DNA of 64,000 bases from the NCBI GenBank assembly GCA_050258935.1, contig JBLMZS010000013.1:141190-205189 (forward strand), read 5' to 3'. The notes below the pieces were generated by a model. It worked only from the letters and a program-made list of their open reading frames with translations. It had not been told where the DNA came from and searched no databases. The translations under genes were made by a program, and so were the position numbers. The stretch is from Bacteroidota bacterium. Lineage in GTDB: Bacteria; Bacteroidota; Ignavibacteria; Ignavibacteriales; SURF-24. Shown here in pieces: positions 7,636 through 26,574 of this stretch. How positions within the stretch are numbered: the stretch's first letter is position 1; the number at the start of each line of letters is the position of its first letter.

Positions 7636-7647
7636 TTTGATATCCTG

Positions 7648-9912
7648 TTAGTTTTTGACTAGTTCGAATTCACCGGATTGCAGGTTCTGAGAATCAGTTC
7701 CGACAAAGACCCTGAATTTGCCCGGTTCGGAAACATATTCCATTTTGTCATTATAGAATCTTAGTTTCTTTTCATCAATTTCAAATTCGACACTAACCGA
7801 CTTGTTCTTCGGGATAAACACTTTTTTGAAATCTTTCAGTTCCTTTACAGGCCGTGTTACCGATGCAAATTCATCCTGCAGATACAGCTGAACTACTTCT
7901 TCTCCGTCGTACTCACTGTTGTTTTTCACTTCGACGGATATTTTAATCATAGAATTATTATCGAGTCTGCTGCTGCTCATATTCATTTTGCCGTAGCTGA
8001 AAGATGAATAACTCAGGCCGTATCCGAACGGATACAGCGGTGTAAGCGGCAGATCCAGATATTTAGAACTGTATGAGTTATTTACGTTGCCAGGTCTGCC
8101 GGTATTCTTGTGGTTATAATAGCACGGCACCTGTCCTACTGTCCTGGGGAATGTAACCGTCAGTTTGCCGGATGGATTGGTTTTTCCAAACAGAACATTT
8201 GCTATTGCGTCACCAGTTCTTATTCCCAGGAACCATGATTCAACTATGGCTGGTATATTTTCACTGATCCAGTTTATGGCAAGCGGCCTGCCGTTCATCA
8301 GAACAGTGACAATTGGCTTGCCTGTTCCGGCAATAGCTTTTGCCAGTTCATTCTGGACTCCGGGCAGTTCGAGAGAAGAGCGGCTGCGTGCCTCACCACT
8401 CATGCCCGCCTCCTCACCGACCACCAGTATTACGACATCAGCCATCTTTGCAGTGTTTACTGCTTCATCAAAACCTTTAACAGACGGATCTGTTATTGTA
8501 CAGCCTTTGCTGTAGAGAATTTCAGTACCCTTAGGAGCAGCATTCCTGATACCGGCAAGAACAGTTGTAACATTTTCCGCTTCACCTCTTTGTGCCCATG
8601 CGCCCAGCGGATTTGCAGAGTCATCAGCCAATGGTCCGATAAGAGCAATTTTGCGGGCATTGGATTTCAGAGGAAGCAGGTCTTTTTCGTTCTTCAGCAG
8701 CACTATTGATTTCTCTGCCACCTGGAGTGCAGCGTCTCTGATTTCGCGGCTGAGAACAGTTTTCTTTTCGTAACTGATGTTGCTGTATTTGTATGGATCA
8801 TCAAACAGTCCGAGCACAAACTTCAATTTCAATACTCTCCTTACTGCTTCGTCGATAGTTGACACATCAACTTTTTTATCCTTTACCAGAGATGGAAGTG
8901 ATTGGACATATGCACGTGACTCCATATCCATATCGAGTCCTGCGGTAATGGACAATTGTGCAGCTTCTGAGTTATCTGATGCATACCCGTGATTTATCAT
9001 TTCACCGATTGAATTCCAGTCGCTGACCACCATTCCTTTAAATCCCCATTCTTTTCTCAGCAGATCCGTCATCAGGAATCTGCTTGCTGATGAAGGTATT
9101 CCGGCTATTTCATTGAATGAGCACATGAATGTAGCAGCACCGGCGTCAACGGCAGCCTTAAACGGCGGGAGGTAAACCTCGCGCAGTGTTCTTTCTGACA
9201 TATCTACTGTATTATAATCCCTGCCGCCTTCTGCGGCTCCGTATGCCGCGAAATGTTTTGCGCATGCAAGAACAGATGTGTTGTCGGACATATTTCCCTG
9301 GTAACCCTTCACGCGCGATGCCGCGATCAGCGAGCCGAGATACTGGTCTTCGCCAGCACCTTCTACTATTCTGCCCCATCTGGGGTCGCGTGCAATATCC
9401 ACCATTGGCGAGAAAGTCCAGTGTATTCCGGCCGATGCAGCTTCAATTGCCTGCCAGCGTGCAGACATGCGGGTTATCGCCGTATCCCACGAGCACGCTT
9501 CAGCGAGTGGCACCGGGAAAGTTGCTTTATAGCCGTGAATTACATCGAGCCCGAAGAGCAGAGGTATTTTCAGGCGGCTCTCTTCCATTGCAGTTTTCTG
9601 CAGTTCTGTAGTCAGCTCGCTGCCCACTGCATTCAAGAAAGATCCGATCCTGCCTTCGCGCACAAGTTTTTTCTGATCGCTCAGTTTTTCATCCCTTACC
9701 AACGGTCCGAATCCAAGACCGCTGGAGAGCTGATTGAGCTGACCGATTTTTTCTTCGAGTGTCATCATTGAAATCAGTGAATCGATCTTATGGTCATATA
9801 CAGTGCTATTGATCAGCATTGGTGAAGAAACCTGCTGCTGCGGATACAAGTCAGTTTTGATTACAGATGCGAATAGTATCGCACCCAGAAATAGTATTTT
9901 TTTCATATTCAT
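7648..9912 (-). CDS. bglX: GH3 beta-glucosidase (BglX-like, three-domain)
   Basis: Has a signal peptide and KHFAAYGAAEGGRDYN. Nucleophile context is GFKGMVVSDWNSI. Has a C-terminal FnIII-like domain (VVQLYLQDEFASVTRPVKELKDF). Lies only 12 nt upstream of the GH16 gene. Confidence 0.9.
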   Translation of the reverse strand: MNMKKILFLGAILFASVIKTDLYPQQQVSSPMLINSTVYDHKIDSLISMMTLEEKIGQLNQLSSGLGFGPLVRDEKLSDQKKLVREGRIGSFLNAVGSELTTELQKTAMEESRLKIPLLFGLDVIHGYKATFPVPLAEACSWDTAITRMSARWQAIEAASAGIHWTFSPMVDIARDPRWGRIVEGAGEDQYLGSLIAASRVKGYQGNMSDNTSVLACAKHFAAYGAAEGGRDYNTVDMSERTLREVYLPPFKAAVDAGAATFMCSFNEIAGIPSSASRFLMTDLLRKEWGFKGMVVSDWNSIGEMINHGYASDNSEAAQLSITAGLDMDMESRAYVQSLPSLVKDKKVDVSTIDEAVRRVLKLKFVLGLFDDPYKYSNISYEKKTVLSREIRDAALQVAEKSIVLLKNEKDLLPLKSNARKIALIGPLADDSANPLGAWAQRGEAENVTTVLAGIRNAAPKGTEILYSKGCTITDPSVKGFDEAVNTAKMADVVILVVGEEAGMSGEARSRSSLELPGVQNELAKAIAGTGKPIVTVLMNGRPLAINWISENIPAIVESWFLGIRTGDAIANVLFGKTNPSGKLTVTFPRTVGQVPCYYNHKNTGRPGNVNNSYSSKYLDLPLTPLYPFGYGLSYSSFSYGKMNMSSSRLDNNSMIKISVEVKNNSEYDGEEVVQLYLQDEFASVTRPVKELKDFKKVFIPKNKSVSVEFEIDEKKLRFYNDKMEYVSEPGKFRVFVGTDSQNLQSGEFELVKN

Positions 9913-10022
9913 AATCGTATTAGTGTTGTAAAATATAAAAATGGACGAAACCCGCCCTCTGCCAGAGCAGATCCCGTCCGTGTGCGTAACATGAACGAGT
10001 AAGCTATGTTAAATTACAATAC

Positions 10023-11888
10023 TCAGTATGATAACCCGAATCCATATTTGAAAAGCGGTTCATAGGTCTTATCACCAATGTTAACCGGTATCTGATCCAT
10101 TGATGCAGGCCATGAAAACGAGAGTTTTCCCGACGGTTTGTAATCCCCGAACAGAACATCTGCCACTCCCTGTCCTTCGCTTCCGGGCAGCCATGCAGCA
10201 ATTAGCGCGTCGCTGTTTTCAAGCACGTTCCCGAGTATCATCGGTCTGCCTGAGAGCAGTATCACAACGCACGGAATTCCTTTGGCTTTTATGGATTCTA
10301 TCAGCTGCCTGTCTTTCTGCGGGATACTGAGATCTTTTCTGTCGCCTTCCATTTCGGCGTATGGTTCTTCGCCAATTACGACTATGGCAGCATCAGTTTT
10401 TTCTGCAGAGGCGATATCTTCCGCATATTTTACTGTGGTCTTATTTGAGACAGTATTTTTTATTGCTGACAGTATGCTTGTACCCTGAACGGTGTTACCG
10501 CTTTTCCCCTGCCAGCTGATAGTCCAGCCTCCGCACTGCATCCCGAGATTATCGGCGCCGCTGCCGGCAATAAGCAGACTGCCCATGTTTTTCTTCAATG
10601 GCAGCAGTTTGTCCTGATTTTTCAGAAGCACAAGCGACTGACGTACACAGTCTCTTGCTATCTGACGGTGTTCGGCAGAACCGACTGAAGTAAGCAGCGA
10701 CCTGTCCGTATACGGATGTTCAAACAGTCCCATCTGAAGCTTTATTTTCAGTATCCTTCTGACAGCATCATCGATCCTGGATACGGGCACTTTTCCTGCG
10801 GCAACGAGTTCCTTCAGATATGTGACAAACTCTATATAGTTATTCGGAGTGCCTGCTGCGAAAGGTATCATCACCATATCAAGTCCGGCATTTATGGATT
10901 CCTCAATATCGCTTTTATAATCGCCTGGCAATTGGTCAATGGCAGCCCAGTCAGATACCAGGAATCCTTCAAAGCCCAGTTCCTTTTTCAGTAGGTCTGT
11001 CAGCAGGTATTTATTCCCGTGCATCTTTTTACCGTTCCAGCTGCTGAAAGAAACCATAATAGAACCGGTACCTGCCTTTATAGCTTCTATATAGCCGGGC
11101 AGATATATTTCACGGAGTGTTTTTTCATCGCACCGCGTGTCCCCCTGGTCTTTTCCATTTACCGTTCCGCCATCACCCAGGAAATGTTTTGCACATGAAA
11201 GCACTGAAGTTTTGCCGTCAAGCTTTCTCCCCTGAAGTCCTTTGACGGCAGAAGCTCCAAGCTCTTTCACCAATTCGGGTGATTCGCCGAAGCTTTCGTA
11301 GCTGCGGCCCCAGCGTTCATCGCGCACGACAGCAACACACGGAGCAAATGTCCAGTCAATTCCGGTGGCGGCTATTTCTCTGGCGGTGATCATTGAAGCT
11401 TTTTCGACCAGTTTAGGATTCCTGGTGCAGCCCAGTCCTATATTATGCGGAAATATGACTGCGCCGGTTACATTATTGTGGCCGTGTACAGCATCGATAC
11501 CGTATATCATAGGTATTTTCAGTCTAGTCTTCAGAGCATACGACTGATATTTATCGTATGCGTCGGCCCAGCCTTTCGCTGAAATATCTGCAATTTCGCT
11601 GTTGCCGCCGCTGAGCAGTGAACCTATATAATACTTTGCAATATCCTCAGGTGATTTTACAATTGCATTCTCATCGACCTGAGTCATCTGTCCTATTTTT
11701 TCTTCGAGCGTCATTCCTGCCAGTATTTTTTCCGCCTGCTTTTCAATTGCATTCCTGTCTTTTTTATTTCCGGCGTAGCTGTCCGCGGGCAGTGCGGTAA
11801 TCAGGCAGGCGGACATCAGCAGCAGTGAAGCAATCGCAGGAGAAAAGTCCAGTCTTCCCGTACGAAAACCGAAAGGAAATAATTTCAT
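10023..11888 (-). CDS. GH3 exo-beta-glucosidase/glucan exohydrolase (ExoI-like, two-domain)
   Basis: [18 protein letters not shown] and the nucleophile context [14 protein letters not shown]. Has an N-terminal signal/anchor. Confidence 0.9.
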
Positions 11889-11929: not shown

Positions 11930-11977
11930 ATAAAAAGAAGCTAGATGCGGCGGAGCTGCTAGAGTGTGCCGCATCTA
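11930..11977 (-). terminator. Terminator after the PorV-like gene
   Basis: 10-bp stem TAGATGCGGC / GCCGCATCTA at 11942-11951 and 11968-11977. On the minus strand it is followed by GCTTCTTTTTAT. Confidence 0.6.
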
Positions 11978-12017
11978 TTTCACCCTTCTAAGGAGTAGAG
12001 AGTTAAAAAGTAATGAA

Positions 12018-13043
12018 CTAAAAAGTAATACCTACAGAGAATTTCTGTATTTCCTCGAGTCTGCCGAAATCCGCATAAGAATAGTCAAATTTAACTGCGA
12101 CGTTTCCGAGCAGCATCTGTTTCAGACCGATACCGAGAGTAAATGATTCCTCGGAATCATCGAGGAACAGCGATTTGTAGCCGCCGCGCAGGAAGACAAC
12201 ATCGCTGAATGAATACTCGGCGCCGACGTTTACGGATTCATAGTTGTCGCTCGGATGAAGGGCATCGACTGCAATTGCAAGTTTATGGTCTTCAGTGAAC
12301 TTAGCCGTATATCCCAGACCTACTCTGAACATAAGCGGCAGCGACCATTCATCTGTCTGGAGGTTTGCGGGAATGTTTCCGTTATTTCCTGAATTTTCCG
12401 GATCGCTGTCGTATATAACCACATTGGAATTTCCGGTCATCTGCATTTTTGTACCGAAGTTTGAAATTGACATAGCGAGAATAATACCTTCAAAAGGAGT
12501 GCGGTATTTAACACCCATATCTATTGCAAATGCGGTAGCGCTCATTTTCCAGATCGACTGATGTACAAATTTCGGATTAAAGCCTATGGCAAAATTGTCG
12601 GTAAGGTTTATTCCGTAGCCGATACTGAATACTGCATCGCTGGCGCTGAATATTTCACCTGTGCCCAGTGGTTCGTCTACAGTAGTAACATTCATATCGC
12701 CATAGCTAGAAGATGTAAAGCTCACACCTATCGTTCCCATACCGCCCAGTCCGTAAGTCGCTGCCACATAGTTGTAAGTAACATCGGAAATCCAGTTAGT
12801 ATGATCAAACACAACCGCGCCATCTTCCATGCTGGCAAGTCCTGCCGGATTCCAGTACATAGAGCTTGGGTCATCGGCAATGGCAACAAAGGCACTGCCC
12901 ATTGCCGTAGCCCTCGCACCCTGTCCTATCAGAAGAAACGGAGCGGCGGATGTACCTCTTTTGGACACATCAGTAACGATGCTCTGTGCATGTCCAACTG
13001 TCACAATAGTCAACAGTAATATCACTAAAAATTTATTTCTCAT
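12018..13043 (-). CDS. PorV/PorQ-like (FadL-superfamily) outer-membrane beta-barrel
   Basis: Has a signal peptide. N-terminal motif GARATAMGSAFVAIADDPSSMYWNPAGLA. Amphipathic strand pattern. C-terminal …FSVGITF. Confidence 0.65.
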   Translation of the reverse strand: MRNKFLVILLLTIVTVGHAQSIVTDVSKRGTSAAPFLLIGQGARATAMGSAFVAIADDPSSMYWNPAGLASMEDGAVVFDHTNWISDVTYNYVAATYGLGGMGTIGVSFTSSSYGDMNVTTVDEPLGTGEIFSASDAVFSIGYGINLTDNFAIGFNPKFVHQSIWKMSATAFAIDMGVKYRTPFEGIILAMSISNFGTKMQMTGNSNVVIYDSDPENSGNNGNIPANLQTDEWSLPLMFRVGLGYTAKFTEDHKLAIAVDALHPSDNYESVNVGAEYSFSDVVFLRGGYKSLFLDDSEESFTLGIGLKQMLLGNVAVKFDYSYADFGRLEEIQKFSVGITF

Positions 13044-13057
13044 TTTTCCTATCTCCG

Positions 13058-16000
13058 TTATTTAATTACTGCAAATTTGCCGATATAAGTACCTATTCCC
13101 GGAGCGTCGACGTGATAGAAATAAACACCGTAGGCTATTTCCATTCCATCTTCTGAAACCAGGTTCCATGATATGGATCCGTCAGAAGGAGAGGAATCCT
13201 TTTCGAGCGTCTTAACCAGCGAACCGGCCATGTTATATATTCTGACCGTACATTTTGCAGGCAGGTTGATAATATCTATCTTACGTTCACCTCTGTCGTT
13301 AGTATTCAGAGTCCTCCTTTCCCATGAAGCCGCTCCGAGGTAAGGATTAGGTACGACGCTGATCTTTGACAATTCAGTTTTTGCCATTGAATTGTCGACC
13401 GACATAGCCTTAGGAGTAAATGTGAAATAGTCACCTGTTTTGAACTGTTTTGAAGTCTTTATCTCATACTTATCGCCGCCTGCAGGCATAACCGGATTTG
13501 CAAGAGGATCATCGGGAGCAGAATACAGAACTCTCCAGGCTATTCTTGAATTGCTTACAGACTGGCTGCCGACGAACTCAAGTATCTGAATCTCATCACC
13601 TATTGTAAGTGAGCCGGACAGGTCGTAATCCTTTGTAGCAAATTTGGAACGCTTGCCGGTAGTCTTATTGGTTATAGTGAAGTTAACCGGGAATTTTTTG
13701 TATCCCTGCGCAGCCGCTTCTATAAATGAAGTATCTGCCGGAGCGTCAGTAAACTGTATTTCATAATCTGACGGCCATGAAATTCCGCGGCTGGATGTTT
13801 CGGGCAGAACGTGTATGCCTAAGTTACTCTTGCTTGACAGCCATCCGGTTGCAGTATCTATCACTGCAATAGCAGTATCATTTTTCACAGACATTGTAAG
13901 TCCGTCAAACGGCGGGCTGTACTTGTCAACTCCAATGAATGATGTATCGAGTGCTGCCTGAAGAGTATCGGTAACTCCGTTCAGTATTCTTAGAATGGAG
14001 TAAGATGTAGTTTTGTATTTCGGTACATCACCGGCAGAAGTGAACTGGATCTTGTAGCTTGCACCAGCCTTTATAGCATCCGGGTTCAGTACGAAAACAT
14101 TCAGACCGCCGGTTCCGATACCCTGTGCGCTGTTAAGGTCACCTGTAATTTCGGGAGCCTTGTAGCCGGCCACCGGAGCGTTCGGAGTAATGACGGCGCA
14201 GTTAATGTCTACGAACTGCACGTTTCCGGCATAATCTTCAGAAATAATTTTAGTACATTCAGAAGGCTGGAGACCTTTAGTACCGTAACTCGGGTCACCC
14301 ATATCGTATGAAACGAGAGCATAGTAATAGCGCTGACCGTTCTTAACATCAGTATCGACGTAAGAATGCGATAGTCCCCTGTCGTCACCTCTCCAGAAGC
14401 TGGCGCCATTGATGCCAACCGGATCGGGACCGGTGATTTTATCTATCTTATCAAACTGAGCAATGGGTTTCCAGTATTTGGCTGCACCCTTTGAATCTGT
14501 AATAGTCTTGATATCATTGAATTCAGCTTCAGTACTTCTGTAAACGAGATATCCTTCAAAATCCTTCTTGTAGCCCTTAGTCATATCTCCGCCTTCAAAT
14601 CCTAAGAACGGATCGCGCGATTCTTCTGCAATTGAATCCCAGTAAAGGAATACTTTTCCATCACCCGGGACTGCAGTAAGAGTAGGCTTATAAGGTGGTT
14701 TTGAGAAGTTGTAGTTCGCATTGTAGATCTGCTGAACTGTTTCTTTATTGAACTTTATGTCGTCCAGATTATCTCCGAACAACAGAGCCATAGAGAATCT
14801 TTCTCTTTTCCCTTCGTTCAGCGGGAAACTTCCCGAGGCAAATACCATACTGATATTTGATTTCTGAAGAGATGTATCGAATTTGGTAGAACTCATTCTC
14901 TGCCACATAGCTTCGTCATCCTTCGGCCATCCGCCGCCAGTTCCGCCCTGGCCCAGTCTGTAAATAGAAACCGAAGTAAGGCCTATCTGATCAGATTCAT
15001 CCTTGTCAGTCTTATCGAAGTTAGGCTCGCCTGCAGTAGGAATTCCGTCACCTTCGCCAGGATCAGGACCGAGGTACTGAGGGTCAAAAGGACCAACGCC
15101 ATCTTCACCGACATCATCGTTGAGCGGTTCGTTCAGTTTTGAGTCCCATTTACCGTTACCATTTATATCGACATAACTTTTCCAGTCTTTATCGTTGTCG
15201 ATACCGTCATCGCGTTTTTCATCTACAATACCGTCCTCGTCATCATCCATTCCGTTTGTTGAATTTCCCGGACTTTCGAGGTATGCATATCCGTAGTAAC
15301 CAGTTTTCCAGTCATTCGGCACTCCCTTGCCGTTTGAGTCATAACAGTATGCAAGGTCGATTTTTTTATCGAAGCTGGCGTTATCATCTTCCGAGTCATC
15401 CTTTCCGCCCACACCGCAATCGGTATAGAAGCCGAAATAGGTATTCGGATACGGGTTATCGGAAATATTCACTATATCATAGTGCCAGAAAATGATATCC
15501 TCAGCCAGCACGTGCGACCACTGAAAGCCGCGTACTTCCACTCTGAGTCCGAGTCCGCCTCTGGAGGAATCGGAAGCCAGCGGGTAGTATTTATATGCAG
15601 GCTGCTGCCATTCTCCGTCCTTAGAATCGTCCATGACGAAAAATGTTTCGAAATCGGAGTTGTTGACTCCGCGGCCGAAGTATCCGTACCAGTAGCCGTT
15701 CCATTCTGAGGAAAGACCGAGAGCGGATGGCCATGTTGCAGGCCAGCTGTTTTTATTGGTATTCAGCGCCATATTTTCAGAGCTCTCATTGAAGTATCCA
15801 GGGACAGGTTCCAACCCCCAAATGGTACCTGTCTTCAGATCCTTATCCATCCATTCCCTGTAGGATGTCTCTAACGGGTGCTCTTTTTTGCCGGTTGCCG
15901 GAGCAGTAATCTCTGTGGTTACCAATACAGCAACACCGTCCAGGTACGAATGGCCGGAACCCTTTGGCCATTCACCCGAAGGCATATACGGCCACTGTCC

Positions 16001-16234
16001 TACTTCGCCGTTGTTGTAATACAGGGTTCTGACCAGGTTACCATCCATGACTCCTTCCCTGCGGTAGCGGACATCACCTTTCAGGTCATCCCTGTATTTC
16101 TGAATCTGAGGATCGACTACCTGCCCGTATAATGAAGGGCAGACGACCAGCAGCAGAAGCCAGAGTTTTTTCATATAAGATTTATTTGTATTCAATTTTT
16201 TAAGCATTATATTTCCTCCGGTATAGAAAAACAT
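13058..16234 (-). CDS. Large secreted protein of unknown function with Ca-binding acidic loops and a T9SS/FlgD-Ig-like C-terminal domain
   Basis: The annotated ATG overlaps the receptor stop (TAATG, 16232-16236). A more likely start is M21 at nt 16174, giving the signal peptide MKKLWLLLLVVCPSLYG. DxDxDG-type loops DDDEDGIVDE, DINGNGKWD and DDVGEDG lie at nt 14984-15253. The C-terminus reads …VVPNPYLGAASWE…YGVYFYHVDAPGIGTYIGKFAVIK. Confidence 0.8.
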   Translation of the reverse strand: MFFYTGGNIMLKKLNTNKSYMKKLWLLLLVVCPSLYGQVVDPQIQKYRDDLKGDVRYRREGVMDGNLVRTLYYNNGEVGQWPYMPSGEWPKGSGHSYLDGVAVLVTTEITAPATGKKEHPLETSYREWMDKDLKTGTIWGLEPVPGYFNESSENMALNTNKNSWPATWPSALGLSSEWNGYWYGYFGRGVNNSDFETFFVMDDSKDGEWQQPAYKYYPLASDSSRGGLGLRVEVRGFQWSHVLAEDIIFWHYDIVNISDNPYPNTYFGFYTDCGVGGKDDSEDDNASFDKKIDLAYCYDSNGKGVPNDWKTGYYGYAYLESPGNSTNGMDDDEDGIVDEKRDDGIDNDKDWKSYVDINGNGKWDSKLNEPLNDDVGEDGVGPFDPQYLGPDPGEGDGIPTAGEPNFDKTDKDESDQIGLTSVSIYRLGQGGTGGGWPKDDEAMWQRMSSTKFDTSLQKSNISMVFASGSFPLNEGKRERFSMALLFGDNLDDIKFNKETVQQIYNANYNFSKPPYKPTLTAVPGDGKVFLYWDSIAEESRDPFLGFEGGDMTKGYKKDFEGYLVYRSTEAEFNDIKTITDSKGAAKYWKPIAQFDKIDKITGPDPVGINGASFWRGDDRGLSHSYVDTDVKNGQRYYYALVSYDMGDPSYGTKGLQPSECTKIISEDYAGNVQFVDINCAVITPNAPVAGYKAPEITGDLNSAQGIGTGGLNVFVLNPDAIKAGASYKIQFTSAGDVPKYKTTSYSILRILNGVTDTLQAALDTSFIGVDKYSPPFDGLTMSVKNDTAIAVIDTATGWLSSKSNLGIHVLPETSSRGISWPSDYEIQFTDAPADTSFIEAAAQGYKKFPVNFTITNKTTGKRSKFATKDYDLSGSLTIGDEIQILEFVGSQSVSNSRIAWRVLYSAPDDPLANPVMPAGGDKYEIKTSKQFKTGDYFTFTPKAMSVDNSMAKTELSKISVVPNPYLGAASWERRTLNTNDRGERKIDIINLPAKCTVRIYNMAGSLVKTLEKDSSPSDGSISWNLVSEDGMEIAYGVYFYHVDAPGIGTYIGKFAVIK

Positions 16235-19011
16235 TAAAATCCAAATCCGAAACCAAGTCTGATCTCTCTCGGCGAGGAATACATGCTGGGATTTGAAGTA
16301 TATTCAGAAATTGTATTCATCCCGATAATATCCCCGGCATATTTAGTATTGAGATCTCTGTTGGCGCGTCCTGTTGTAGAATAAACACCATTTTCATTTT
16401 TTATATCGAGCAGGTTATAGACCAGCAGGAATGTATTCAGATTAACTCCGTAAATGTTGAATGTTTTCTCTGCACGGAAGTCTACATTATATGTCGCCGG
16501 TTTAATTCCGCCGTTCTGGAATCTTATACCGTTTGAGACCTTGATATCTTCGGTATATGGGAAGCCTGATCCATACTGGAATACTATGCCGGTCGTCCAG
16601 TCGCCCGGTTCACCCACCGTAAGTTCAAGGTTGAGTGTATTTCTCTGATCCCAGTCGAGGGGCAGCACTTTCTTTGTTTCAGGAATCGGGGGATCTGTCT
16701 GGTTGTTGTTGAAAACGGACATAGGATCAGATGCATTGCCTTCTGCGATCTGATATGTATAATCCACCTTGGCGCTGAAGTAGTCGGCAAATCTCTTTTC
16801 GAGGGTAACTATAAAACCTCTTACGTTACCATAGTCCCTGTTGATATACCTGGCGTATTTGAAACCTTCATATGTGTTGATGATTTCCATACCAAGAAGA
16901 TTTCTGATATCACGGTAGTAGGCAGTAAAGTTAAGAACGACGTTCGGGAACAATACCTGCTGAAGACCGATTTCATACATTACAGTTTTCTGCGGTTTCA
17001 GATCGGGATTACCGGTGATATATGAAAGCGATTCACCCGGATTAACTATGAAATCAGGGTTTGTATACAGGTTTTCATAATTCGGTATCTGGAAGAAGTG
17101 TCCGTAGGAAAATCTGATGATACCTTCATCGGTGATCGGGAACGAAGCTCCGAGTCTTGGGCTTATCTGAAATTTCGGATCAACTTTTCTCATCACTCCT
17201 GCATTGGGGAAATCGGGATTTCTTCTGGGATTCCTGAGATCTGCAAGCAGTTCTGAATTCGGATCGAAATAATCGAGCCTGATACCGGCATTTATGATCA
17301 TGATATCATATTCCATTTTATCCTGGATGTATGCCGAAAATTCGCGGGGCGTTTTGTTATAAAGTATATTTGAACCCTGGTCGGTCATAGTGCCCTGATC
17401 AGGATAGCCAGGTGTAAATATTACCTTGCCCGTCAGAGTGTCGACCTGCCCGTCTGTCAGATTTACGAGATCCAGATTGTGCTGAAACATCTTGTGGAGC
17501 CTGGCTTCTGCACCCATGCCGATCTTGTGTTCCTTGGTTATCTGTGAAGCAAGTGTCCACTGAATAATTTTTGTAATAGTTGTTCTGTAATATCTTCCGC
17601 CCTGATTGCCGCCTGACCTGAACACATAGTTTGTAAGGGCGACACCCTGGCGGGGACTTACGTATCTCTGGTCGAACATATCCTCATAAAGATAACCTTC
17701 ATAGTTATGTTCATTATATGAGAACTTAAGGCTCTGATAAGTGTTGGAACTGGGATAGTGGAAAATCTGAAAACTGTGGATGGCATTTTTCCTGTAATGA
17801 TTCATTATACCATCAGGAGTCCATGAATAGCCATGATCGTAGTATTTATTATAATTATCGTCCCACATCAGGCCGTATGTAAATTTAAGATAAGGAGTTG
17901 AATAACTGATCTTTCCATTTACGGAATATTTTCTGTCCGGATTCATAGGTACGTATGAGCTGTCGCCGGTATGGATATAATAATAAACATTGTCTCCAAA
18001 GGGCAGTTTGACCGGAGCGTCGTCATTTACGCTGTAGATCCTCCTGCCATAAAGGTGCCCCTTGTTATCATAATATCTGCCGGATACAAAATAAGTCAGA
18101 TTTTTTACGATAGGTCCGCTGAAACTGAACTGAAAATTTTTCGTAGCTATATTGTCAAGCTTGTCGAGGTTTTTGAAAAGATCGTCGTGTGTTGTAAAAT
18201 AGTTTCCGATATATCCCGAAGCTGTTCCCTCAAATTTTGCAGACCCCTCCTGAGTAACTATGTTTACTATACCAGACATAGCCTGTCCGTATTCAGCGTT
18301 GAAAGTACCGCTAATAACTTCCATCTGGCGAATCGAGTTATTATCCACCTCAAGGCTCATGCCGCCGTTATAAGCATCTGTAACGGACACTCCGTCGATC
18401 AGATATGCAACCTCGTTGGAACGTCCGCCGCGGAAGTGTCCGCCAACGACACCAGCCTGAAGGTTGATCACCTGGCCGACATCCTCAACCGGCATCATCT
18501 TCATATCCGAAGCGGAAATGGTGGCTGATGTGGATGTAAGATCCTTCTGAACCAGTGGTCTGTCTGCCTTTACAACGACTTCCTGCCCCAGTGTAAGCGT
18601 TGTCGACTTTATCTGTATATCTATTCGAGTAGTTAAATCTATTTTAACTAAAACATCTTCAACGGTCACTTTTGAATAGCCGACGGCACTGGCAATAATC
18701 TTATGAGTGCCGGGCTGAATGTTGCTAATACTATAATATCCATCTATATCCGTTGCGGCACCCAGGTAGGTACCTTCAACTATAACATTCACACCAAATA
18801 CCGGTTGTCCTGTTTCATCGGTCACTTTACCTGTAATCTTTCCAGTGGTTCCGGCAAATACTGCTCCGGAGGCCAGCACGGAAATTATGAACATGAGCAG
18901 GTACTGTTTTGCATTCGCAAATCTTATAGTAAACCGCTCCATGTTAGTGTTTTTTTCAGCAGAGGTTTCCAAATCCAAAGCCTCCTTATATTGTATATTC
19001 AGCATATTCAC
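16234..19011 (-). CDS. TonB-dependent outer-membrane receptor with an N-terminal CarboxypepD_reg-like domain
   Basis: The probable true start is M24 (MERFTIRF…, nt 18942), giving the signal peptide …ASGAVFA. Contains GKITGKVTDETGQPVFGVNVIVEGT, a plug and a long barrel. C-terminal …REIRLGFGFGF. Confidence 0.9.
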   Translation of the reverse strand: MNMLNIQYKEALDLETSAEKNTNMERFTIRFANAKQYLLMFIISVLASGAVFAGTTGKITGKVTDETGQPVFGVNVIVEGTYLGAATDIDGYYSISNIQPGTHKIIASAVGYSKVTVEDVLVKIDLTTRIDIQIKSTTLTLGQEVVVKADRPLVQKDLTSTSATISASDMKMMPVEDVGQVINLQAGVVGGHFRGGRSNEVAYLIDGVSVTDAYNGGMSLEVDNNSIRQMEVISGTFNAEYGQAMSGIVNIVTQEGSAKFEGTASGYIGNYFTTHDDLFKNLDKLDNIATKNFQFSFSGPIVKNLTYFVSGRYYDNKGHLYGRRIYSVNDDAPVKLPFGDNVYYYIHTGDSSYVPMNPDRKYSVNGKISYSTPYLKFTYGLMWDDNYNKYYDHGYSWTPDGIMNHYRKNAIHSFQIFHYPSSNTYQSLKFSYNEHNYEGYLYEDMFDQRYVSPRQGVALTNYVFRSGGNQGGRYYRTTITKIIQWTLASQITKEHKIGMGAEARLHKMFQHNLDLVNLTDGQVDTLTGKVIFTPGYPDQGTMTDQGSNILYNKTPREFSAYIQDKMEYDIMIINAGIRLDYFDPNSELLADLRNPRRNPDFPNAGVMRKVDPKFQISPRLGASFPITDEGIIRFSYGHFFQIPNYENLYTNPDFIVNPGESLSYITGNPDLKPQKTVMYEIGLQQVLFPNVVLNFTAYYRDIRNLLGMEIINTYEGFKYARYINRDYGNVRGFIVTLEKRFADYFSAKVDYTYQIAEGNASDPMSVFNNNQTDPPIPETKKVLPLDWDQRNTLNLELTVGEPGDWTTGIVFQYGSGFPYTEDIKVSNGIRFQNGGIKPATYNVDFRAEKTFNIYGVNLNTFLLVYNLLDIKNENGVYSTTGRANRDLNTKYAGDIIGMNTISEYTSNPSMYSSPREIRLGFGFGF

Positions 19012-19037: not shown

Positions 19038-19068
19038 CAGGATATCTCCCGGTTCGGGAGATATCCTG
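19038..19068 (-). promoter_or_regulatory. Intercistronic stem-loop between the surface-protein gene and the TonB receptor gene; possibly an attenuator or processing site
   Basis: 14-bp perfect stem CAGGATATCTCCCG / CGGGAGATATCCTG with a 3-nt loop. On the minus strand only a weak T tract (TTCTAATCC) follows. Confidence 0.4.
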
Positions 19069-19077
19069 GAATGTGTA

Positions 19078-21588
19078 TTATTTAATTAACATCATTTTCT
19101 TTACGCTCTGGAAATCACCGGCCTTTATCTGATAGAGATATATACCGCTGGCCAGATGCGAAGCATTGAATGATACTGTATGTGAACCGGCATCCTGCTG
19201 CATATTAACAAGACTTGCCACTTCTCTTCCCAGTACATCATATACCTTCAGAGTCACTAATCCGGCCTGTCCGAGCGAATATTTGATCTGAGTAGACGGA
19301 TTGAACGGGTTAGGATAATTCTGATCGAGTGAGTATGTCGTAGCAACCATTGGTTTGTCATTTACTCCGACTGTCCACTGATCACCGATCCAGGTGTATA
19401 ACCATCTCCATACATCCTGATACGATTTATCATCGTTGAAAGGCGAGTAACTGAGGATACCTTCTCTTTGACCAGTAGCATCGGCATCATTAAGAGAGAT
19501 ATCAATTGGAATTCTCATGCCGTTTGCAGGAACGAACAGAGAGTCGAAATTGGTGGCGCCTGCATTTCTTTTTCTTGCAAAATCAGCCAGAGGAATTCTT
19601 GCTTCTACTACATATCCGGTCGGGAATTTTTCAGTCCATGAATAATTAGCTCCGGGAAGCAGCAGTGTATCAAGTGACTGTCCGTCAAAACGGGCTTTGT
19701 CCTTTGAGAATCTTGCATGATAATCGGGTGAAAGTCCTCTTCCATAACCGGCGTGAGGAACACCGTGCCAGTCATAGAGACCTATATAGAGATCTGCACA
19801 GTCATTCTTATAATCGTCAGTATTTGCAGGATTGACAGTTATCATATCGTCTTCGACGTCGTAAGCAACGTAAAGGTTTTCCTTGTCAATAGCGAGGTAA
19901 ACTTTTGCTGAGCAGTCTGCGTCATCATTGATAAGTGTATTAGGAGCAACAAATCCGGTACCCTGTGATCTTGCAACAGTAATCGGAGTGATTGCTGACC
20001 ATTCTTTCAGATCGCCGTCGGCAGCAAATGAAGTTGCCGGAGGATTGAGTGATATTGTCGGAACACCGAGAGCTGTGTTAGTAGCTGCACCTGCAGGAGC
20101 TGCTATTTCACTGGCATTACCGAATGCGTCTGTACAAACGATAGCATAATAGTATGTTACCTGCTGATCAGATACCGGTGCACGGAGAAGGTGCTCGACT
20201 ACCGAAACGTTCTCTCCTATTCCCTTCTTTACTACTTCTACGTCTGATGATTTGATGTCTGTAATCGGTGATTTTGAATAGTATACGTCGTATACTTCTT
20301 TTGATTCACCAGGTACATCTGTCCAGCTGATAAGGTTGCTGTTTGTGCTGGCATTGACCATTACGCCGTCAGGTTTATTCGGAGCGACAACGTCAAATAC
20401 AGGGTTGCCTGTCCAGATATCGTCCATATAGATATCGCATGCCTTGGATGAACCGTTTTCTGTGAGAATTTCGAATTTCTTCACCTTTGAAGAATCGAAT
20501 CCGGCTTTATTATCTGATACCACCCAGTTGCGCAGAGGTATTCTGATAGTTTTCCACGTGCCGTCCCAGTTGTAGTCTGCAGCTTTTGCAACATATTTAA
20601 TTGCTGCATCAGTACCTGCCTGGGTATTGCTCATGAACTGAATACGTATATCATCGCCGAATTCAGCGGGAACTTTCACTTTCATTTTCAGAGTATCGTT
20701 GGTGATCCAGTTTCCGGCCATGTTCTTTTCAGCAAAGTCAAAGTACATGCCCGACCAGCCGCCGCCGCCGCTCCACTTGATAGCCGATTTACCCTGTGCA
20801 GAGCCGGAATTTGGTTCAATAGCAACAGAACCGCCCCAGCCTCCCATTGTAAGGTCGCCGGTAACTACTTTTCCGTTGAATACTACGAACGGTACAGACC
20901 TGTAGCCAAACCTGGTGAAATTATCGTAGCTTACGACTATCGAGTCCATGGGAAGATTTCTCGGAGCCACATATCCGGTTGTAATTATACCGAGGTTAAA
21001 GCCGACTATTTTATCTCTGTCAAGCTTTTCATTGTTGTATGTTCCGCCGCCCCAGCTCTTCGGGAAAAGTACAAATCCCTCTGCATTCGGAGTTACAGAA
21101 CCATCGGTAGGACGTTCAACGAGCGGAACTCTCAGGTTAACCCAGCCATCTGCCTTGTCCAGTATGACGGTCTGTTCGTAAATGTATTCTTCGTTAGATA
21201 CATCGGCACTCGGTCTGTCGGCAATGTGAATCCTGAAGACCATGTTTTCAGGGAGCGTCGGGGCCTGATGAACTTTGATCCAGATGCTGAGTGAATCACT
21301 TCCGCTCCAGTCGAACGGAGCTGCATCACTGGGAACACTGTAAATTAACTGGGCATAGCTGCCCCAGGGATGTGCAGAATCAACAGTAGCTGTTACTTTT
21401 ACTGCACCGGTACCTTCGTGTTTGTCAGTCTGATCGATCACGTTGACCATCTTGGATTTTCCCTCGATGCTCACCTTGTACCTGGTACTCAGTGAATCGA
21501 AATTATCGATTTCGAATACCTGTGCGTATGACATAACAGGAAGAAACCACAACATCAACAGAAGTGATTGTAGCAAACGCTTTTTCAT
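19078..21588 (-). CDS. Secreted multi-module carbohydrate-binding surface protein (beta-sandwich modules, FN3, CBM9-like) with a T9SS C-terminal sorting domain
   Basis: Signal peptide MKKRLLQSLLLMLWFLPVMSYAQ. FN3-like PNKPDGVMVNASTNSNLISWTDVPGESKEVYDVYYS. CBM9-like block DGDLKEWSAITPI…AKVYLAIDKENLYVAYDVEDD…GYVVEARIPL…ISLNDAD. C-terminal domain QNYPNPFNPSTQIKYSL…SGIYLYQIKAGDFQSVKKMMLIK. Confidence 0.8.
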   Translation of the reverse strand: MKKRLLQSLLLMLWFLPVMSYAQVFEIDNFDSLSTRYKVSIEGKSKMVNVIDQTDKHEGTGAVKVTATVDSAHPWGSYAQLIYSVPSDAAPFDWSGSDSLSIWIKVHQAPTLPENMVFRIHIADRPSADVSNEEYIYEQTVILDKADGWVNLRVPLVERPTDGSVTPNAEGFVLFPKSWGGGTYNNEKLDRDKIVGFNLGIITTGYVAPRNLPMDSIVVSYDNFTRFGYRSVPFVVFNGKVVTGDLTMGGWGGSVAIEPNSGSAQGKSAIKWSGGGGWSGMYFDFAEKNMAGNWITNDTLKMKVKVPAEFGDDIRIQFMSNTQAGTDAAIKYVAKAADYNWDGTWKTIRIPLRNWVVSDNKAGFDSSKVKKFEILTENGSSKACDIYMDDIWTGNPVFDVVAPNKPDGVMVNASTNSNLISWTDVPGESKEVYDVYYSKSPITDIKSSDVEVVKKGIGENVSVVEHLLRAPVSDQQVTYYYAIVCTDAFGNASEIAAPAGAATNTALGVPTISLNPPATSFAADGDLKEWSAITPITVARSQGTGFVAPNTLINDDADCSAKVYLAIDKENLYVAYDVEDDMITVNPANTDDYKNDCADLYIGLYDWHGVPHAGYGRGLSPDYHARFSKDKARFDGQSLDTLLLPGANYSWTEKFPTGYVVEARIPLADFARKRNAGATNFDSLFVPANGMRIPIDISLNDADATGQREGILSYSPFNDDKSYQDVWRWLYTWIGDQWTVGVNDKPMVATTYSLDQNYPNPFNPSTQIKYSLGQAGLVTLKVYDVLGREVASLVNMQQDAGSHTVSFNASHLASGIYLYQIKAGDFQSVKKMMLIK

Positions 21589-23286: not shown

Positions 23287-23324
23287 CCGCCTACAATAAA
23301 AATGGTTATTAACATATTCTTTAT

Positions 23325-23340
23325 GTCATAAACAATGCCA
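23325..23340 (-). promoter_or_regulatory. Weak candidate sigma54 (-24/-12) promoter for the glycan-utilisation operon
   Basis: The minus strand reads TGGCATTGTTTATGAC about 50 nt upstream of the symporter ATG. The -24 TGGCA is perfect. The -12 is ATGA rather than TTGC, so the conserved C is missing. Confidence 0.2.
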
Positions 23341-23467
23341 GAGGTGAAAAGTCTTCAAATCCGTAAAATTTCGCGGTATTGTGTATCCAGTGGTATTTCC
23401 GGGCAGGGTTTTTATTTATTAAAATTATAATCGGTTTTATTATTTTAATAAGGGAGCATACAGTTTT

Positions 23468-23540
23468 CAGTTGTTAGTTCTCAGTTCTCAGTTAACTAAC
23501 AACTGAGAACTAATAACTGAGAACTAATAACTGATAACTA
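23468..23540. repeat. Array of direct and inverted copies of a 13-14-nt motif (AACTGAGAACTAA[T])
   Basis: Direct copies lie at 23501-23514 and 23515-23528, with a degenerate copy at 23529-23540. An inverted copy TTAGTTCTCAGTT lies at 23474-23486. A 12-bp perfect stem pairs 23468-23479 with 23494-23505. The last copy overlaps the regulator stop codon. Confidence 0.85.
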
Positions 23541-25001: not shown

Positions 25002-25009
25002 AACTCCGT

Positions 25010-26485: not shown

Positions 26486-26574
26486 GGCTTAACCTGTAGC
26501 ATGTGCTTAAAACAAATCTTTCTTTTGCATATAGTCATTCTTCATTCCTCATCCGGCAGTATCTTCAAAAACAC

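What the first reader, a model, noticed from the sequence alone, without database searches (positions are those of the whole stretch)
12018..19011. Tightly coupled TonB receptor / 1058-aa unknown protein / PorV-like barrel cassette as a candidate non-SusD glycan capture machine
Seen: the receptor stop and the annotated ATG of the 1058-codon ORF overlap (TAATG, 16232-16236). The PorV-like barrel gene follows 14 nt after the 1058-aa gene, and the unit ends in a terminator. I can name only two features in the 1058-aa protein. One is an acidic segment with DxDxDG-type calcium loops (DDDEDGIVDE, DINGNGKWD, DDVGEDG). The other is a C-terminal beta-sandwich resembling a T9SS/FlgD-Ig sorting domain. 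The small barrel carries the GARATAMGSAF…DDPSSMYWNPAGLA motif of the PorV/PorQ/FadL family. Established: PorV is the T9SS outer-membrane shuttle that binds C-terminal-domain cargo, and SusC-like receptors normally need a SusD lid. Inference: the PorV paralogue may act as a dedicated anchor or shuttle that holds the CTD-bearing 1058-aa protein next to the TonB receptor. That would give a three-part surface complex replacing SusCD. I am not aware of a functional description of such a cassette.
Basis: partly seen in the sequence, partly recalled or inferred. Interest (0 to 1): 0.75.

Follow-up and report, generated by a model that had tools for sequence, protein, structure and literature searches.

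The report
SusD-free glycan-uptake outer-membrane gene cassette
A TonB-dependent receptor, an unannotated ~1040-aa all-beta protein with a secretion-type tail and a PorV/PorQ-family barrel form a cassette found next to different sugar-degrading genes in many phyla related to Bacteroidota, which suggests an undescribed, SusD-free way of equipping a glycan importer, though no physical complex has been shown.

Summary
Three tightly packed minus-strand genes encode a TonB-dependent receptor (TBDR), a ~1040-aa protein with no Pfam family ("X"), and a PorV/PorQ-family barrel. They sit in a beta-glucan locus and are followed by a hairpin with a U tail. The TAATG overlap exists, but X more likely starts 27 or 60 nt downstream.

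The proposed synteny test came out positive. Across 162 related loci, a TBDR lies directly upstream of X in 134/137 and a PorV-like barrel directly downstream in 144/144, with median gaps of 24 and 15 nt. A fourth gene, a CBM-bearing T9SS-tailed surface protein, precedes the TBDR in 100/105.

The cassette occurs in Ignavibacteria, Rhodothermia, Calditrichota, KSB1, Marinimicrobia and Delongbacteria. Its neighbours vary: GH16/GH3, GH130 plus ABC transporter, GH9/GH5, GH2, GH20.

X is not SusD and has no catalytic domain. Its modelled order is a beta-supersandwich with acidic loops, FN3, a variable beta region, then a divergent T9SS-type C-terminal domain (CTD). That CTD is closest to the uncleaved CTDs of PorZ and PorU.

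Best reading: X is exported by the T9SS, docks on its cognate barrel and serves the TBDR. The docking and the complex are inferred, not shown. I found no published description.

The parts
19078..21588 (-). 836-aa surface glycan-binding-type protein (SGBP_B_XBD-like domain, CBM9, canonical T9SS type-A CTD). This is the fourth conserved member of the cassette.
   Evidence: Pfam CBM9_1 57 bits, Por_Secre_tail 46 bits, SGBP_B_XBD 31 bits. TIGR04183 48 bits. A homologue lies upstream of the TBDR in 100/105 loci. Distant loci carry CBM4_9- or other CTD proteins in the same position.
19038..19068 (-). Perfect 14-bp hairpin between the CBM9-CTD gene and the receptor gene, with no U tract.
   Evidence: RNA fold dG -24.9 kcal/mol, z -5.7, 0/200 shuffles fold as well.
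16234..19011 (-). TonB-dependent receptor (N-terminal CarboxypepD_reg domain, plug, barrel). The probable true start is the ATG at 18942. It is not SusC/RagA family.
   Evidence: Pfam. TIGR04056 63 bits against a cut-off of 368. Directly upstream of X in 134/137 loci, median gap 24 nt.
13058..16234 (-). Protein X, an unannotated family of ~1040-1100 aa. The probable start is at 16207 or 16174. It has a signal peptide and no lipobox.
   Evidence: No Pfam family. 3431 homologues, all unnamed or 'hypothetical'. 645 clusters at 50% identity with E<=1e-30. AF2 model pLDDT 83.6, pTM 0.73, almost all beta. A lipobox-like motif occurs in only 29/431 family members.
14690..16120 (-). X residues 19-495: the conserved N-terminal beta-supersandwich. 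Acidic, loop-only DxDxDG-type segments are inserted at residues ~301-398 (14981-15274).
   Evidence: Domain model pLDDT 88.6, pTM 0.87. Foldseek matches the N-terminal beta-sandwich of GH94/GH149/GH161/GH116 enzymes at probability 1.0, TMq 0.3-0.4, 6-10% identity. This is the most conserved part of X.
14105..14689 (-). X residues 496-690: conserved FN3-type beta domains.
   Evidence: Secondary structure, FN3 arrays among the Foldseek hits, conservation 0.53-0.79.
13385..14104 (-). X residues 691-930: variable beta-sandwich region, a candidate for the substrate-specific part.
   Evidence: Lowest conservation in X: 0.29-0.49 across phyla and 45% among orthologues, against 72% for the N-terminal part. 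The specificity role is an inference.
13061..13384 (-). X residues 931-1038: divergent T9SS-type C-terminal Ig domain (VVPNPY ... KFAVIK). It carries a conserved insertion at residues 944-962 that is modelled as disordered.
   Evidence: NCBIfam best hits are the PorZ CTD (4.7e-6) and the PorU CTD (7.8e-6); TIGR04183 scores 20.1 bits, below its cut-off of 23. The Foldseek top hit is PorZ 5m11, with PorU 6za2 also listed. Conservation is 0.65-0.80 across phyla. The insertion has pLDDT 37-46 yet holds invariant Y945, E952 and R961. The motif occurs in 101/118 cluster representatives.
12018..13043 (-). 341-aa PorV/PorQ-family outer-membrane barrel. It is a paralogue, not the PorV or PorQ orthologue.
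   Evidence: NF033709 231 bits (cut-off 90); PorQ equivalog 108 (cut-off 220); PorV equivalog 88.8 (cut-off 250). Directly downstream of X in 144/144 loci, median gap 15 nt.
11931..11990 (-). Stem-loop with a U-rich tail after the barrel gene; a moderate intrinsic terminator.
   Evidence: Sequence. Fold dG -21.3, z -2.4. Not listed by the simple scan because its loop is 16 nt.
6808..11888 (-). Downstream enzymes: GH3 (10023-11888), a strong terminator at 9943-9979, GH3 (7648-9912), GH16 (6808-7635).
   Evidence: Pfam; terminator.
21748..27924 (-). Upstream transport and regulation genes: SSF sugar symporter (21748-23286), sigma-54 response regulator (23538-25001), histidine kinase (25010-26485), solute-binding protein (26575-27924).
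   Evidence: Pfam. This gene order is conserved in the orthologous Ignavibacteria loci.

Best explanation
This is the outer-membrane module of a SusD-free, PUL-like glycan-utilisation locus (here for beta-glucan). The same four-gene module is shared by many non-Bacteroidia lineages of the FCB group.

Shown:
- A CBM-bearing T9SS-CTD surface protein, a non-SusC TonB-dependent receptor, protein X and a PorV/PorQ-family barrel are encoded in that order with very short gaps.
- The unit travels intact between loci for different polysaccharides and between phyla.

Inferred mechanism:
1. X is exported by Sec and then by the type IX secretion system through its divergent C-terminal domain.
2. That domain is not cleaved. 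It docks on the cognate PorV/PorQ paralogue encoded 14 nt downstream, as the PorZ CTD docks on PorQ and the PorU CTD on PorV. The conserved but unstructured insertion in the CTD is the likely contact.
3. This fixes X in the outer membrane beside the receptor.
4. The substrate-independent N-terminal supersandwich and FN3 core of X serve the receptor or the module.
5. The variable beta region of X and the upstream CBM protein capture the glycan and hand oligosaccharides, cut by the T9SS-anchored GH16 and similar enzymes, to the receptor.
6. The periplasmic GH3 enzymes and the SSF symporter (an ABC transporter in other loci) complete uptake.

In function X would be a T9SS-anchored counterpart of the SusD/SGBP surface lipoproteins. 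It is not homologous to them.
For: Synteny:
- TBDR directly upstream of X in 134/137 loci, PorV-like barrel directly downstream in 144/144, CBM/CTD protein upstream in 100/105.
- Median gaps of 24 and 15 nt.

Same cassette, different neighbours and phyla:
- GH16/GH3/SSF in Ignavibacteria.
- LacI/ABC/GH130 in Rhodothermaceae, Calditrichota, Marinimicrobia and others.
- GH2 mannosidase in KSB1.
- GH9/GH16/GH5 in Melioribacteraceae.
- A GH94-like gene in an Ignavibacteriales paralogue.
- Delongbacteria.
- GH20, GH2 and GH5 in the neighbour census.
- Two cassettes in tandem in L072.

The barrel is PorV/PorQ family.

X's C-terminal domain:
- Its best sequence and fold matches are the PorZ and PorU CTDs, the two CTDs known to stay uncleaved on PorQ and PorV (PMC10202324).
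- It is as conserved as the core of the protein across phyla.
- It is present in 101/118 cluster representatives.
- It holds a conserved insertion with pLDDT below 50.

Other properties of X:
- It lacks a lipobox, so it needs an anchoring route other than SusD's lipid anchor.
- It has no catalytic domain and is all-beta.
- Its N-terminal core is conserved whatever the substrate, while residues 691-930 vary.

Many neighbouring genes carry Por_Secre_tail (16/39), so a T9SS is in use in these organisms.
Against: - No physical interaction was tested.
- X's CTD falls below the curated cut-offs of every T9SS sorting-domain model, so T9SS export is itself an inference.
- Among orthologues the CTD of X (70% identity) is only modestly more conserved than the ordinary, presumably cleaved CTD of the neighbouring CBM9 protein (61.5%).
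- The receptor is not SusC-like. Many non-SusC TBDRs work without any lid, so X may not touch it at all.
- No glycan-binding site was identified in X.
- The fold match of the N-domain is to an accessory domain, with low TM-scores.
- Conserved gene order proves functional linkage, not a complex.
Confidence: 0.5

Rival explanations
1. X and the PorV-like barrel form a locus-specific T9SS sorting or attachment scaffold rather than a glycan binder. They would collect or anchor the locus's other CTD-bearing proteins (the CBM protein, GH16-CTD, GH9-CTD) next to the receptor, as a local counterpart of the PorQ-PorZ / PorV-PorU attachment complex.
For: The best CTD matches are PorZ and PorU. Por_Secre_tail proteins are the commonest neighbours (16/39). 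The conserved core of X does not depend on the substrate.
Against: Outside the CTD, X shows no sequence match to PorU or PorZ, and the Foldseek matches to them have TM-scores of only 0.07-0.09. The window's own locus has only one other CTD protein. The cassette always sits with a TBDR, which a pure sorting device would not require.
Confidence: 0.15
2. X is a new carbohydrate-active enzyme with a calcium-dependent beta-sandwich catalytic domain, and the barrel simply anchors or exports it.
For: There are many invariant Asp, Glu and Trp residues in residues 30-500, together with DxDxDG-type loops. The fold neighbours all come from glycoside hydrolases or phosphorylases.
Against: The matched part of those enzymes is their non-catalytic N-terminal sandwich, and X lacks their (alpha/alpha)6 catalytic domain. 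The same conserved N-domain occurs in beta-glucan, mannan-type and cellulose-type loci, and by table in the xylan locus of R. marinus (not checked by sequence). That spread does not fit a substrate-specific enzyme. No CAZyme Pfam was hit.
Confidence: 0.1
3. The barrel works on its own as a FadL-type diffusion channel, or as a general T9SS PorV/PorQ component. X is an ordinary secreted or A-LPS-anchored glycan-binding protein whose CTD is cleaved. The adjacency reflects co-regulation only, and there is no three- or four-part complex.
For: The barrel gives weak Toluene_X and UPF0164 hits. The ordinary CTD of the CBM9 protein is also well conserved (61.5%). No interaction data exist.
Against: The barrel is directly downstream of X in 144/144 loci, with a median gap of 15 nt, across phyla and changing neighbours. 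The barrel misses the PorV and PorQ equivalog cut-offs, so it is not the housekeeping copy. The cassette duplicates as a unit. Toluene_X is below its cut-off.
Confidence: 0.15

Closest known systems
SusC/SusD (RagA/RagB) pairs and the 'utilisome' surface lipoproteins (SGBPs) of Bacteroidota polysaccharide utilisation loci
   Same: A TonB-dependent importer is encoded next to surface accessory proteins and CAZymes, a regulator and an inner-membrane transporter. The receptor has the same N-terminal CarboxypepD_reg-type domain. The upstream protein has an SGBP_B_XBD-like domain and a CBM.
   Different: The receptor fails the SusC/RagA model (63 bits against a cut-off of 368). There is no SusD homologue. 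The accessory proteins are not lipoproteins; they carry T9SS-type C-terminal domains. A PorV/PorQ-family barrel is an obligatory member of the unit.
PorZ-PorQ and PorU-PorV pairs of the T9SS attachment complex (Porphyromonas gingivalis)
   Same: A surface protein has a T9SS CTD that is retained and bound by a PorV/PorQ-family barrel. X's CTD matches the PorZ and PorU CTDs best, and the barrel is a member of the PorV/PorQ family.
   Different: X has no PorZ beta-propellers and no PorU peptidase domain. The barrel is not the PorV or PorQ orthologue. The pair is encoded inside sugar-utilisation loci next to a TBDR, and can occur in two copies side by side in one genome (L072). Retention of the CTD has not been shown.
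Type-B CTD cargo with cognate PorP/SprF barrels (for example SprB-SprF in Flavobacterium johnsoniae)
   Same: The cargo gene and its dedicated PorV-like barrel gene are adjacent. The barrel is proposed to be needed for secretion and anchoring, and the CTD is not cleaved.
   Different: The barrel gives no PorP_SprF hit. X's CTD scores below the type-B (CHU_C) cut-off and looks more like type A or PorZ. The functional context is nutrient uptake, not gliding adhesins.
Other TBDT-plus-surface-partner systems: BtuB-BtuG, TbpA-TbpB, HmuR-HmuY, and the SusD-free CUT loci of Proteobacteria (named from my own knowledge, not checked in the paper library)
   Same: A TonB-dependent transporter is assisted by a dedicated surface protein that captures the ligand, or, in CUT loci, works with CAZymes and without SusD.
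   Different: Those partners are lipoproteins of unrelated folds. None uses a T9SS CTD or a FadL/PorV-type barrel as its anchor.
BamG-BamH of the Bacteroidota BAM complex (PMC12578637)
   Same: A 14-stranded FadL-family barrel serves as the attachment platform for a surface protein and sits against another large barrel.
   Different: The barrel scores far below the BamG model (20 bits against a cut-off of 250). BamH is a lipoprotein. The function there is OMP assembly.

Membership tests
TonB-dependent receptor | Plug domain plus 22-strand barrel domain (Pfam PF07715 and PF00593 above their cut-offs) | tested here: met
   PF00593 83.9 bits (cut-off 27); PF07715 32 bits (cut-off 23.9).
SusC/RagA family TBDT | Full-length match to TIGR04056 above the curated cut-off of 368 bits | tested here: not met
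   63 bits, covering residues 58-257 only.
Canonical PUL | An adjacent susC-susD gene pair | tested here: not met
   No SusD-family hit in any gene between 2869 and 27924. The gene after the receptor is X.
SusD/RagB family (for X) | SusD Pfam domains, an alpha-helical TPR fold and an N-terminal lipobox | tested here: not met
   No Pfam hit. The model is almost all beta. A lipobox-like motif is found in only 29/431 members.
PorV/PorQ family (for the 341-aa barrel) | NCBIfam NF033709 above its cut-off of 90 bits | tested here: met
   231.2 bits over the full length; Pfam PorV 41.4 bits (cut-off 27).
PorV proper / PorQ proper | Equivalog models NF033710 (cut-off 250) and NF033711 (cut-off 220) | tested here: not met
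   88.8 and 108 bits, so the barrel is a paralogue.
PorP/SprF family | Match to the Pfam PorP_SprF model | tested here: not met
   Not among the hits at E<=0.01.
FadL/Toluene_X transporter | PF03349 above its cut-off of 29.7 bits | tested here: not met
   20.6 bits, N-terminal 130 residues only.
T9SS type-A CTD (for the X C-terminus) | TIGR04183 or PF18962 above the cut-off, an Ig-like seven-strand fold, and a position at the extreme C-terminus | tested here: inconclusive
   TIGR04183 20.1 bits (cut-off 23); PF18962 16.1 bits (cut-off 27). The fold and position fit: the Foldseek top hit is PorZ and the VVPNPY...KFAVIK motifs are present. The positive control, the CBM9 protein's CTD, scores 52 bits.
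T9SS type-B CTD | PF13585 (CHU_C) above its cut-off of 27 bits | tested here: not met
   19.6 bits.
T9SS cargo with a retained CTD (PorZ/PorU-like) | The CTD is uncleaved and bound to a PorV/PorQ barrel | not testable with these tools
   Indirect evidence only: best matches to the PorZ and PorU CTDs, an obligatory adjacent barrel, and a conserved disordered insertion.
Calcium-binding DxDxDG / thrombospondin type-3-like loops | Repeated DxDxDG motifs that bind calcium | tested here: inconclusive
   Two strict motifs (residues 310 and 336) lie in a conserved, acidic, loop-only segment. No Pfam TSP_3 hit. Metal binding was not tested.

The most novel reading that the evidence does not exclude
A previously undescribed class of TonB-dependent glycan import machine is widespread outside the Bacteroidia (Ignavibacteriota, Rhodothermia/Balneolia, Calditrichota, KSB1, Marinimicrobia, Delongbacteria and probably others). 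In it the accessory surface proteins are delivered by the type IX secretion system instead of being lipoproteins. A new ~1000-1100-aa protein family (X) is held beside the transporter by a dedicated PorV/PorQ-paralogue barrel through an uncleaved C-terminal domain. This would be a functional analogue of the SusCD 'utilisome', and the PorV-like barrel would have a role as a structural subunit of a nutrient transporter complex.
Probability: 0.35. Interest if true: 0.8.

Novelty: new variant of a known kind. Interest (0 to 1): 0.68.

Why it matters
SusCD pairs are the accepted hallmark of glycan foraging in Bacteroidota, and they are how PULs are found in genomes. This cassette would mark glycan-uptake loci that SusD-based searches miss. 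The phyla involved matter for carbon turnover in soils, sediments, hot springs and the ocean, for example Ignavibacteria, Rhodothermia, Calditrichota and Marinimicrobia.

It would give a first functional context to a large unannotated protein family, with thousands of sequences and 645 clusters at 50% identity with E<=1e-30.

It would also widen the role of PorV/PorQ-type barrels from secretion shuttles to fixed anchors inside nutrient-uptake machines.

The idea can be tested directly, because cultured organisms carry the cassette: Roseithermus sacchariphilus RA (L080), Rosettibacter primus (L057), and probably Rhodothermus marinus (Rmar_1070-1072).

Tried and rejected
- Divergent SusD: rejected. 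X has no Pfam hit and an all-beta model.
- Known enzyme: rejected. There are no CAZyme hits and no PDB sequence relative (best E 0.17). Fold matches are limited to the accessory N-domains of GH94/GH116-type enzymes.
- FadL orthologue: rejected.
- Sigma-54 promoter: a search for TGGCAC-N5-TTGC with up to 1 mismatch found nothing in the window. Reading the intergenic regions gave no convincing site.
- CTD conservation as proof that the CTD is retained: only weakly discriminating, because the neighbouring ordinary CTD is also 61.5% conserved.
- The conserved 470-aa gene of the mannan-type loci is not related to the window's PPIase.
- The 604-aa ORF at 2869-4683 is not related to the FG-GAP CTD protein of L072.
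- Literature: nine full-text searches found no functional description of the cassette. The only trace is a table that lists Rmar_1070-1072 as a TBDR plus two hypothetical proteins (PMC6987092). I could not confirm by sequence that these are cassette members.

Full report
**1. What is in the window**

All the relevant genes lie on the minus strand. Pfam and NCBIfam give this order, from upstream to downstream:
- solute-binding protein (26575-27924)
- histidine kinase (25010-26485)
- sigma-54 response regulator (23538-25001)
- SSF sugar symporter (21748-23286)
- an 836-aa protein with an SGBP_B_XBD-like domain, CBM9 and a canonical T9SS type-A C-terminal domain (CTD) (19078-21588)
- a TonB-dependent receptor (TBDR) (16234-19011)
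- the 1058-codon ORF, called X here (13058-16234)
- a 341-aa PorV/PorQ-family barrel (12018-13043)
- GH3 (10023-11888), GH3 (7648-9912) and GH16 (6808-7635)

This is a beta-glucan utilisation locus with no SusD gene.

**2. Checking the observation**

The barrel ATG follows 14 nt after the X stop codon.

The TAATG overlap exists, but it is probably not the start that is used. A GGAGGA Shine-Dalgarno sequence precedes the ATG at 16207. NCBI's model of the identical protein is 1049 aa, which equals that start. Most homologues begin at the MKK that corresponds to 16174.

After the barrel gene there is a 10-bp stem with a 16-nt loop and a U-rich tail (dG -21.3, z -2.4). The simple terminator scan missed it because of the long loop. 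A much stronger terminator follows the first GH3 gene at 9943-9979.

**3. Is the cassette conserved?**

I collected 79 loci from genomes and 80 from metagenomes, plus contigs that encode distant homologues.

Synteny across the 162 loci held at that point:
- A TBDR homologue lies directly upstream of X in 134 of the 137 loci with enough flank. The three exceptions are split X genes or contig ends.
- A PorV-like homologue lies directly downstream in 144 of 144.
- A CBM/CTD protein lies upstream of the receptor in 100 of 105.

The median gaps are 24 nt between receptor and X and 15 nt between X and barrel.

The close relatives (58-71% identity) are orthologous beta-glucan loci of Ignavibacteriaceae and Melioribacteraceae. 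Distant members (38-50% identity) carry the same four genes beside other functions:
- LacI, an ABC transporter and GH130 in Roseithermus (Rhodothermaceae RA), a Calditrichota MAG, Marinimicrobia and another large genome
- a GH2 mannosidase in KSB1
- GH9, GH16-malectin, GH3 and GH5 in a Melioribacteraceae isolate
- a GH94-like gene in an Ignavibacteriales paralogue
- an ABC transporter in Delongbacteria

A Pfam census of 39 neighbours in divergent loci added GH20, GH2, GH5, Laminin_G_3 and a Reg_prop regulator. It also showed Por_Secre_tail on 16 of the 39.

Locus L072 carries two cassettes in tandem.

The cassette is also better described as having four parts than three.

**4. The receptor**

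It has the CarboxypepD_reg-plug-barrel layout. It scores 63 bits against the SusC/RagA model, whose cut-off is 368, and matches only at the N-terminus. It is a TBDR but not a SusC, so the premise that it 'needs' a SusD lid does not apply.

**5. The barrel**

NF033709 (PorV/PorQ family) scores 231 bits against a cut-off of 90. The PorQ (108 against 220), PorV (88.8 against 250), PorV2 and BamG equivalog models are all missed. Toluene_X/FadL is below its cut-off, and PorP/SprF is not hit. The barrel is a dedicated paralogue within the PorV/PorQ family.

**6. Protein X**

*Family.* No Pfam family matches, whether X is searched whole or in three pieces. No PDB sequence relative was found. Every one of the 469 homologues retrieved is either unnamed or called 'hypothetical', and none has a Pfam domain. 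The family is large: 4411 representatives of 50%-identity clusters at E<=1e-3 and 645 at E<=1e-30, with lengths of 1000-1600 aa. Source names include Ignavibacteria, Rhodothermia, Balneolaceae, Cyclonatronaceae, Rubricoccaceae, Calditrichaeota, KSB1, Latescibacterota, Marinimicrobia, Fidelibacterota and Delongbacteria.

*Model.* An AF2 model built from a 74-sequence alignment has pLDDT 83.6 and pTM 0.73, and is almost entirely beta. Its layout is:
- signal peptide
- a beta-sandwich at residues ~30-300 and 399-485, interrupted by a loop-only acidic segment (301-398) that holds the DxDxDG-type motifs
- FN3-like domains (~496-690)
- further beta-sandwiches (691-930)
- a C-terminal Ig domain (931-1038)

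*N-terminal domain.* Modelled alone, residues 19-495 reach pLDDT 88.6 and pTM 0.87. Foldseek matches the N-terminal beta-supersandwich of several enzymes at probability 1.0, TMq 0.3-0.4 and 6-10% identity: GH94, GH149 and GH161 phosphorylases, GH116 glucosidase, dextran dextrinase and cyclic glucan synthase. X has nothing that corresponds to their (alpha/alpha)6 catalytic domains. X therefore looks like a non-catalytic, carbohydrate-associated surface protein.

*Conservation.* The pattern is informative. Residues 30-690 and the CTD are conserved across phyla (0.55-0.80), whereas residues 691-930 are variable (0.29-0.49). Among 81 orthologous loci the values are 72%, 70% and 45% identity. X as a whole (65%) is more conserved than the receptor (61%), the barrel (61%) or the CBM9 protein (43%). 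A core that does not change with the substrate fits a role inside a conserved machine. The variable region is the obvious candidate for substrate specificity, although that is an inference.

**7. The C-terminal domain of X**

It has the VVPNPY start and the K-F-A-V-I-K end typical of T9SS CTDs, but it scores below every curated cut-off:
- TIGR04183: 20.1 bits (cut-off 23)
- PF18962: 16.1 bits (cut-off 27)
- CHU_C: 19.6 bits (cut-off 27)

As a control, the neighbouring CBM9 protein's CTD scores 52 bits.

The best NCBIfam matches to X's CTD are the C-termini of PorZ (E 4.7e-6) and PorU (E 7.8e-6). The best Foldseek hit of the whole model is PorZ (5m11, probability 1.0), and PorU (6za2) is also listed. 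According to the review PMC10202324, these are exactly the two T9SS proteins whose CTDs are not cleaved and remain bound to PorQ and PorV. The same review notes that type-B cargo need a cognate PorP/SprF barrel encoded next door, and suggests that cognate PorV-like barrels protect CTDs from cleavage.

Three further observations:
- The X CTD contains an insertion (residues 944-962) with pLDDT 37-46 that nevertheless holds invariant Y945, E952 and R961 and near-invariant G960 and G962. This is the signature of a segment that becomes ordered on a partner.
- The CTD motif is present in 101 of 118 long cluster representatives, including 25 of the 26 that are 1250 aa or longer.
- Only 29 of 431 family members have a lipobox-like signal. 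X therefore has no lipid anchor.

**8. Most likely mechanism**

Shown:
- There is a conserved, tightly packed four-gene outer-membrane module inside PUL-like loci.
- X is a secreted, all-beta, non-SusD protein with no catalytic domain and a T9SS-like tail.
- The barrel is a PorV/PorQ paralogue.

Inferred:
1. X is exported by the T9SS.
2. Its CTD stays on and docks on the cognate barrel.
3. This holds X next to the receptor.
4. There, X and the CBM-bearing CTD protein capture glycan and present oligosaccharides for TonB-dependent import.

I give this 0.5.

Rivals:
- X and the barrel are a local sorting or attachment scaffold for the locus's CTD enzymes (0.15).
- X is a new enzyme (0.1).
- There is no complex; the barrel and X work independently and are merely co-regulated (0.15).

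**9. Comparison with known systems**

The module works like a SusCD/SGBP utilisome, but it fails the SusC, SusD and canonical-PUL membership tests. The X-barrel pair resembles PorZ-PorQ, PorU-PorV and SprB-SprF, but it is not orthologous to any of them.

FadL-family barrels serving as platforms for surface proteins also have a precedent in BamG-BamH (PMC12578637).

Nine full-text searches found no functional description of the cassette. The only trace is Table 1 of PMC6987092. It lists Rmar_1070 (TBDR), Rmar_1071 (hypothetical, with a Por CTD) and Rmar_1072 (hypothetical) in the xylan locus of Rhodothermus marinus. I did not verify these by sequence. Papers in subscription journals are outside the searchable library.

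**10. Verdict**

The cassette and the 'dedicated PorV paralogue' idea stand up to every test available here. The 'replaces SusCD' framing, the three-part count and the TAATG coupling need correction, and the physical complex remains hypothetical.

- Novelty: a new variant of known kinds (TBDR-based glycan loci, and CTD-barrel cognate pairs).
- Interest: 0.68.

Noticed in passing
window 19038-19068 (minus strand): A perfect 14-bp hairpin (dG -24.9, z -5.7) lies between the CBM9-CTD gene and the receptor gene, and it has no U tract. It could be an RNA processing or stability element, or an attenuator that sets the ratio of the upstream protein to the receptor operon.
   Followed up: partly
window 4884-6707 (minus strand); L072 5944-7608: A 607-aa SurA/PpiD-like PPIase lies at the far end of the locus. 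A full-length homologue (E 5e-13) sits immediately after the PorV-like barrel in L072. PPIase homologues also recur near the cassette in L059, L089, L093, L148, L152, L159 and L166. It may be a fifth, chaperone component.
   Followed up: partly
window 2869-4683 (minus strand): A 604-aa ORF with no Pfam family carries an HEYGH (HExxH) motif, and its C-terminal sequence reads like an FN3-type domain. It may be an unannotated metallopeptidase. It is not conserved in the related loci.
   Followed up: no
L072 7801-14814: A second cassette lies in tandem with the first: an FG-GAP/CTD protein, a 1031-aa TBDR and a second X homologue (34-38% identity) that runs off the contig end. The module therefore duplicates as a unit within a genome.
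   Followed up: partly
L002 14237-16045 and the same position in most Ignavibacteria loci: In L002 a ~600-aa GH16-malectin-T9SS-CTD gene lies between the barrel and GH3, and L082 has the same kind of gene. Most orthologous loci show a gap of similar size there. The window lacks this gene; it goes straight from the barrel to GH3 and has only a short 275-aa GH16 without a CTD.
   Followed up: partly
L080 17747-19159; also L081, L164, L165: A conserved gene of ~470-480 aa with no Pfam family follows the ABC permeases in the GH130 (mannan-type) loci. It is unrelated to the window's PPIase.
   Followed up: partly
window ~23450-23545 (minus strand): A long repetitive inverted repeat (TTCTCAGTTATTAGTTCTCAGTTGTTAGTTAACTGAGAACTGAGAACTAACAACTG) sits just after the response-regulator gene and upstream of the SSF gene. 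It is probably a terminator or a regulatory hairpin. No sigma-54 consensus promoter was found in the window.
   Followed up: no
window 31423-33960 (plus strand): A second CarboxypepD_reg-plus-barrel outer-membrane protein (OMP_b-brl_3, 257 bits) has no Plug hit and no X or PorV-like partner. It shows that the partner genes go with one receptor subfamily only.
   Followed up: no
Rhodothermus marinus Rmar_1070-1072 (literature, PMC6987092 Table 1): The published xylan locus of R. marinus lists a TBDR followed by a hypothetical protein with a Por CTD and then another hypothetical protein, all downstream of CTD-bearing Xyn10A. It is very likely the same cassette in a cultured organism, but I did not verify it by sequence.
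   Followed up: partly
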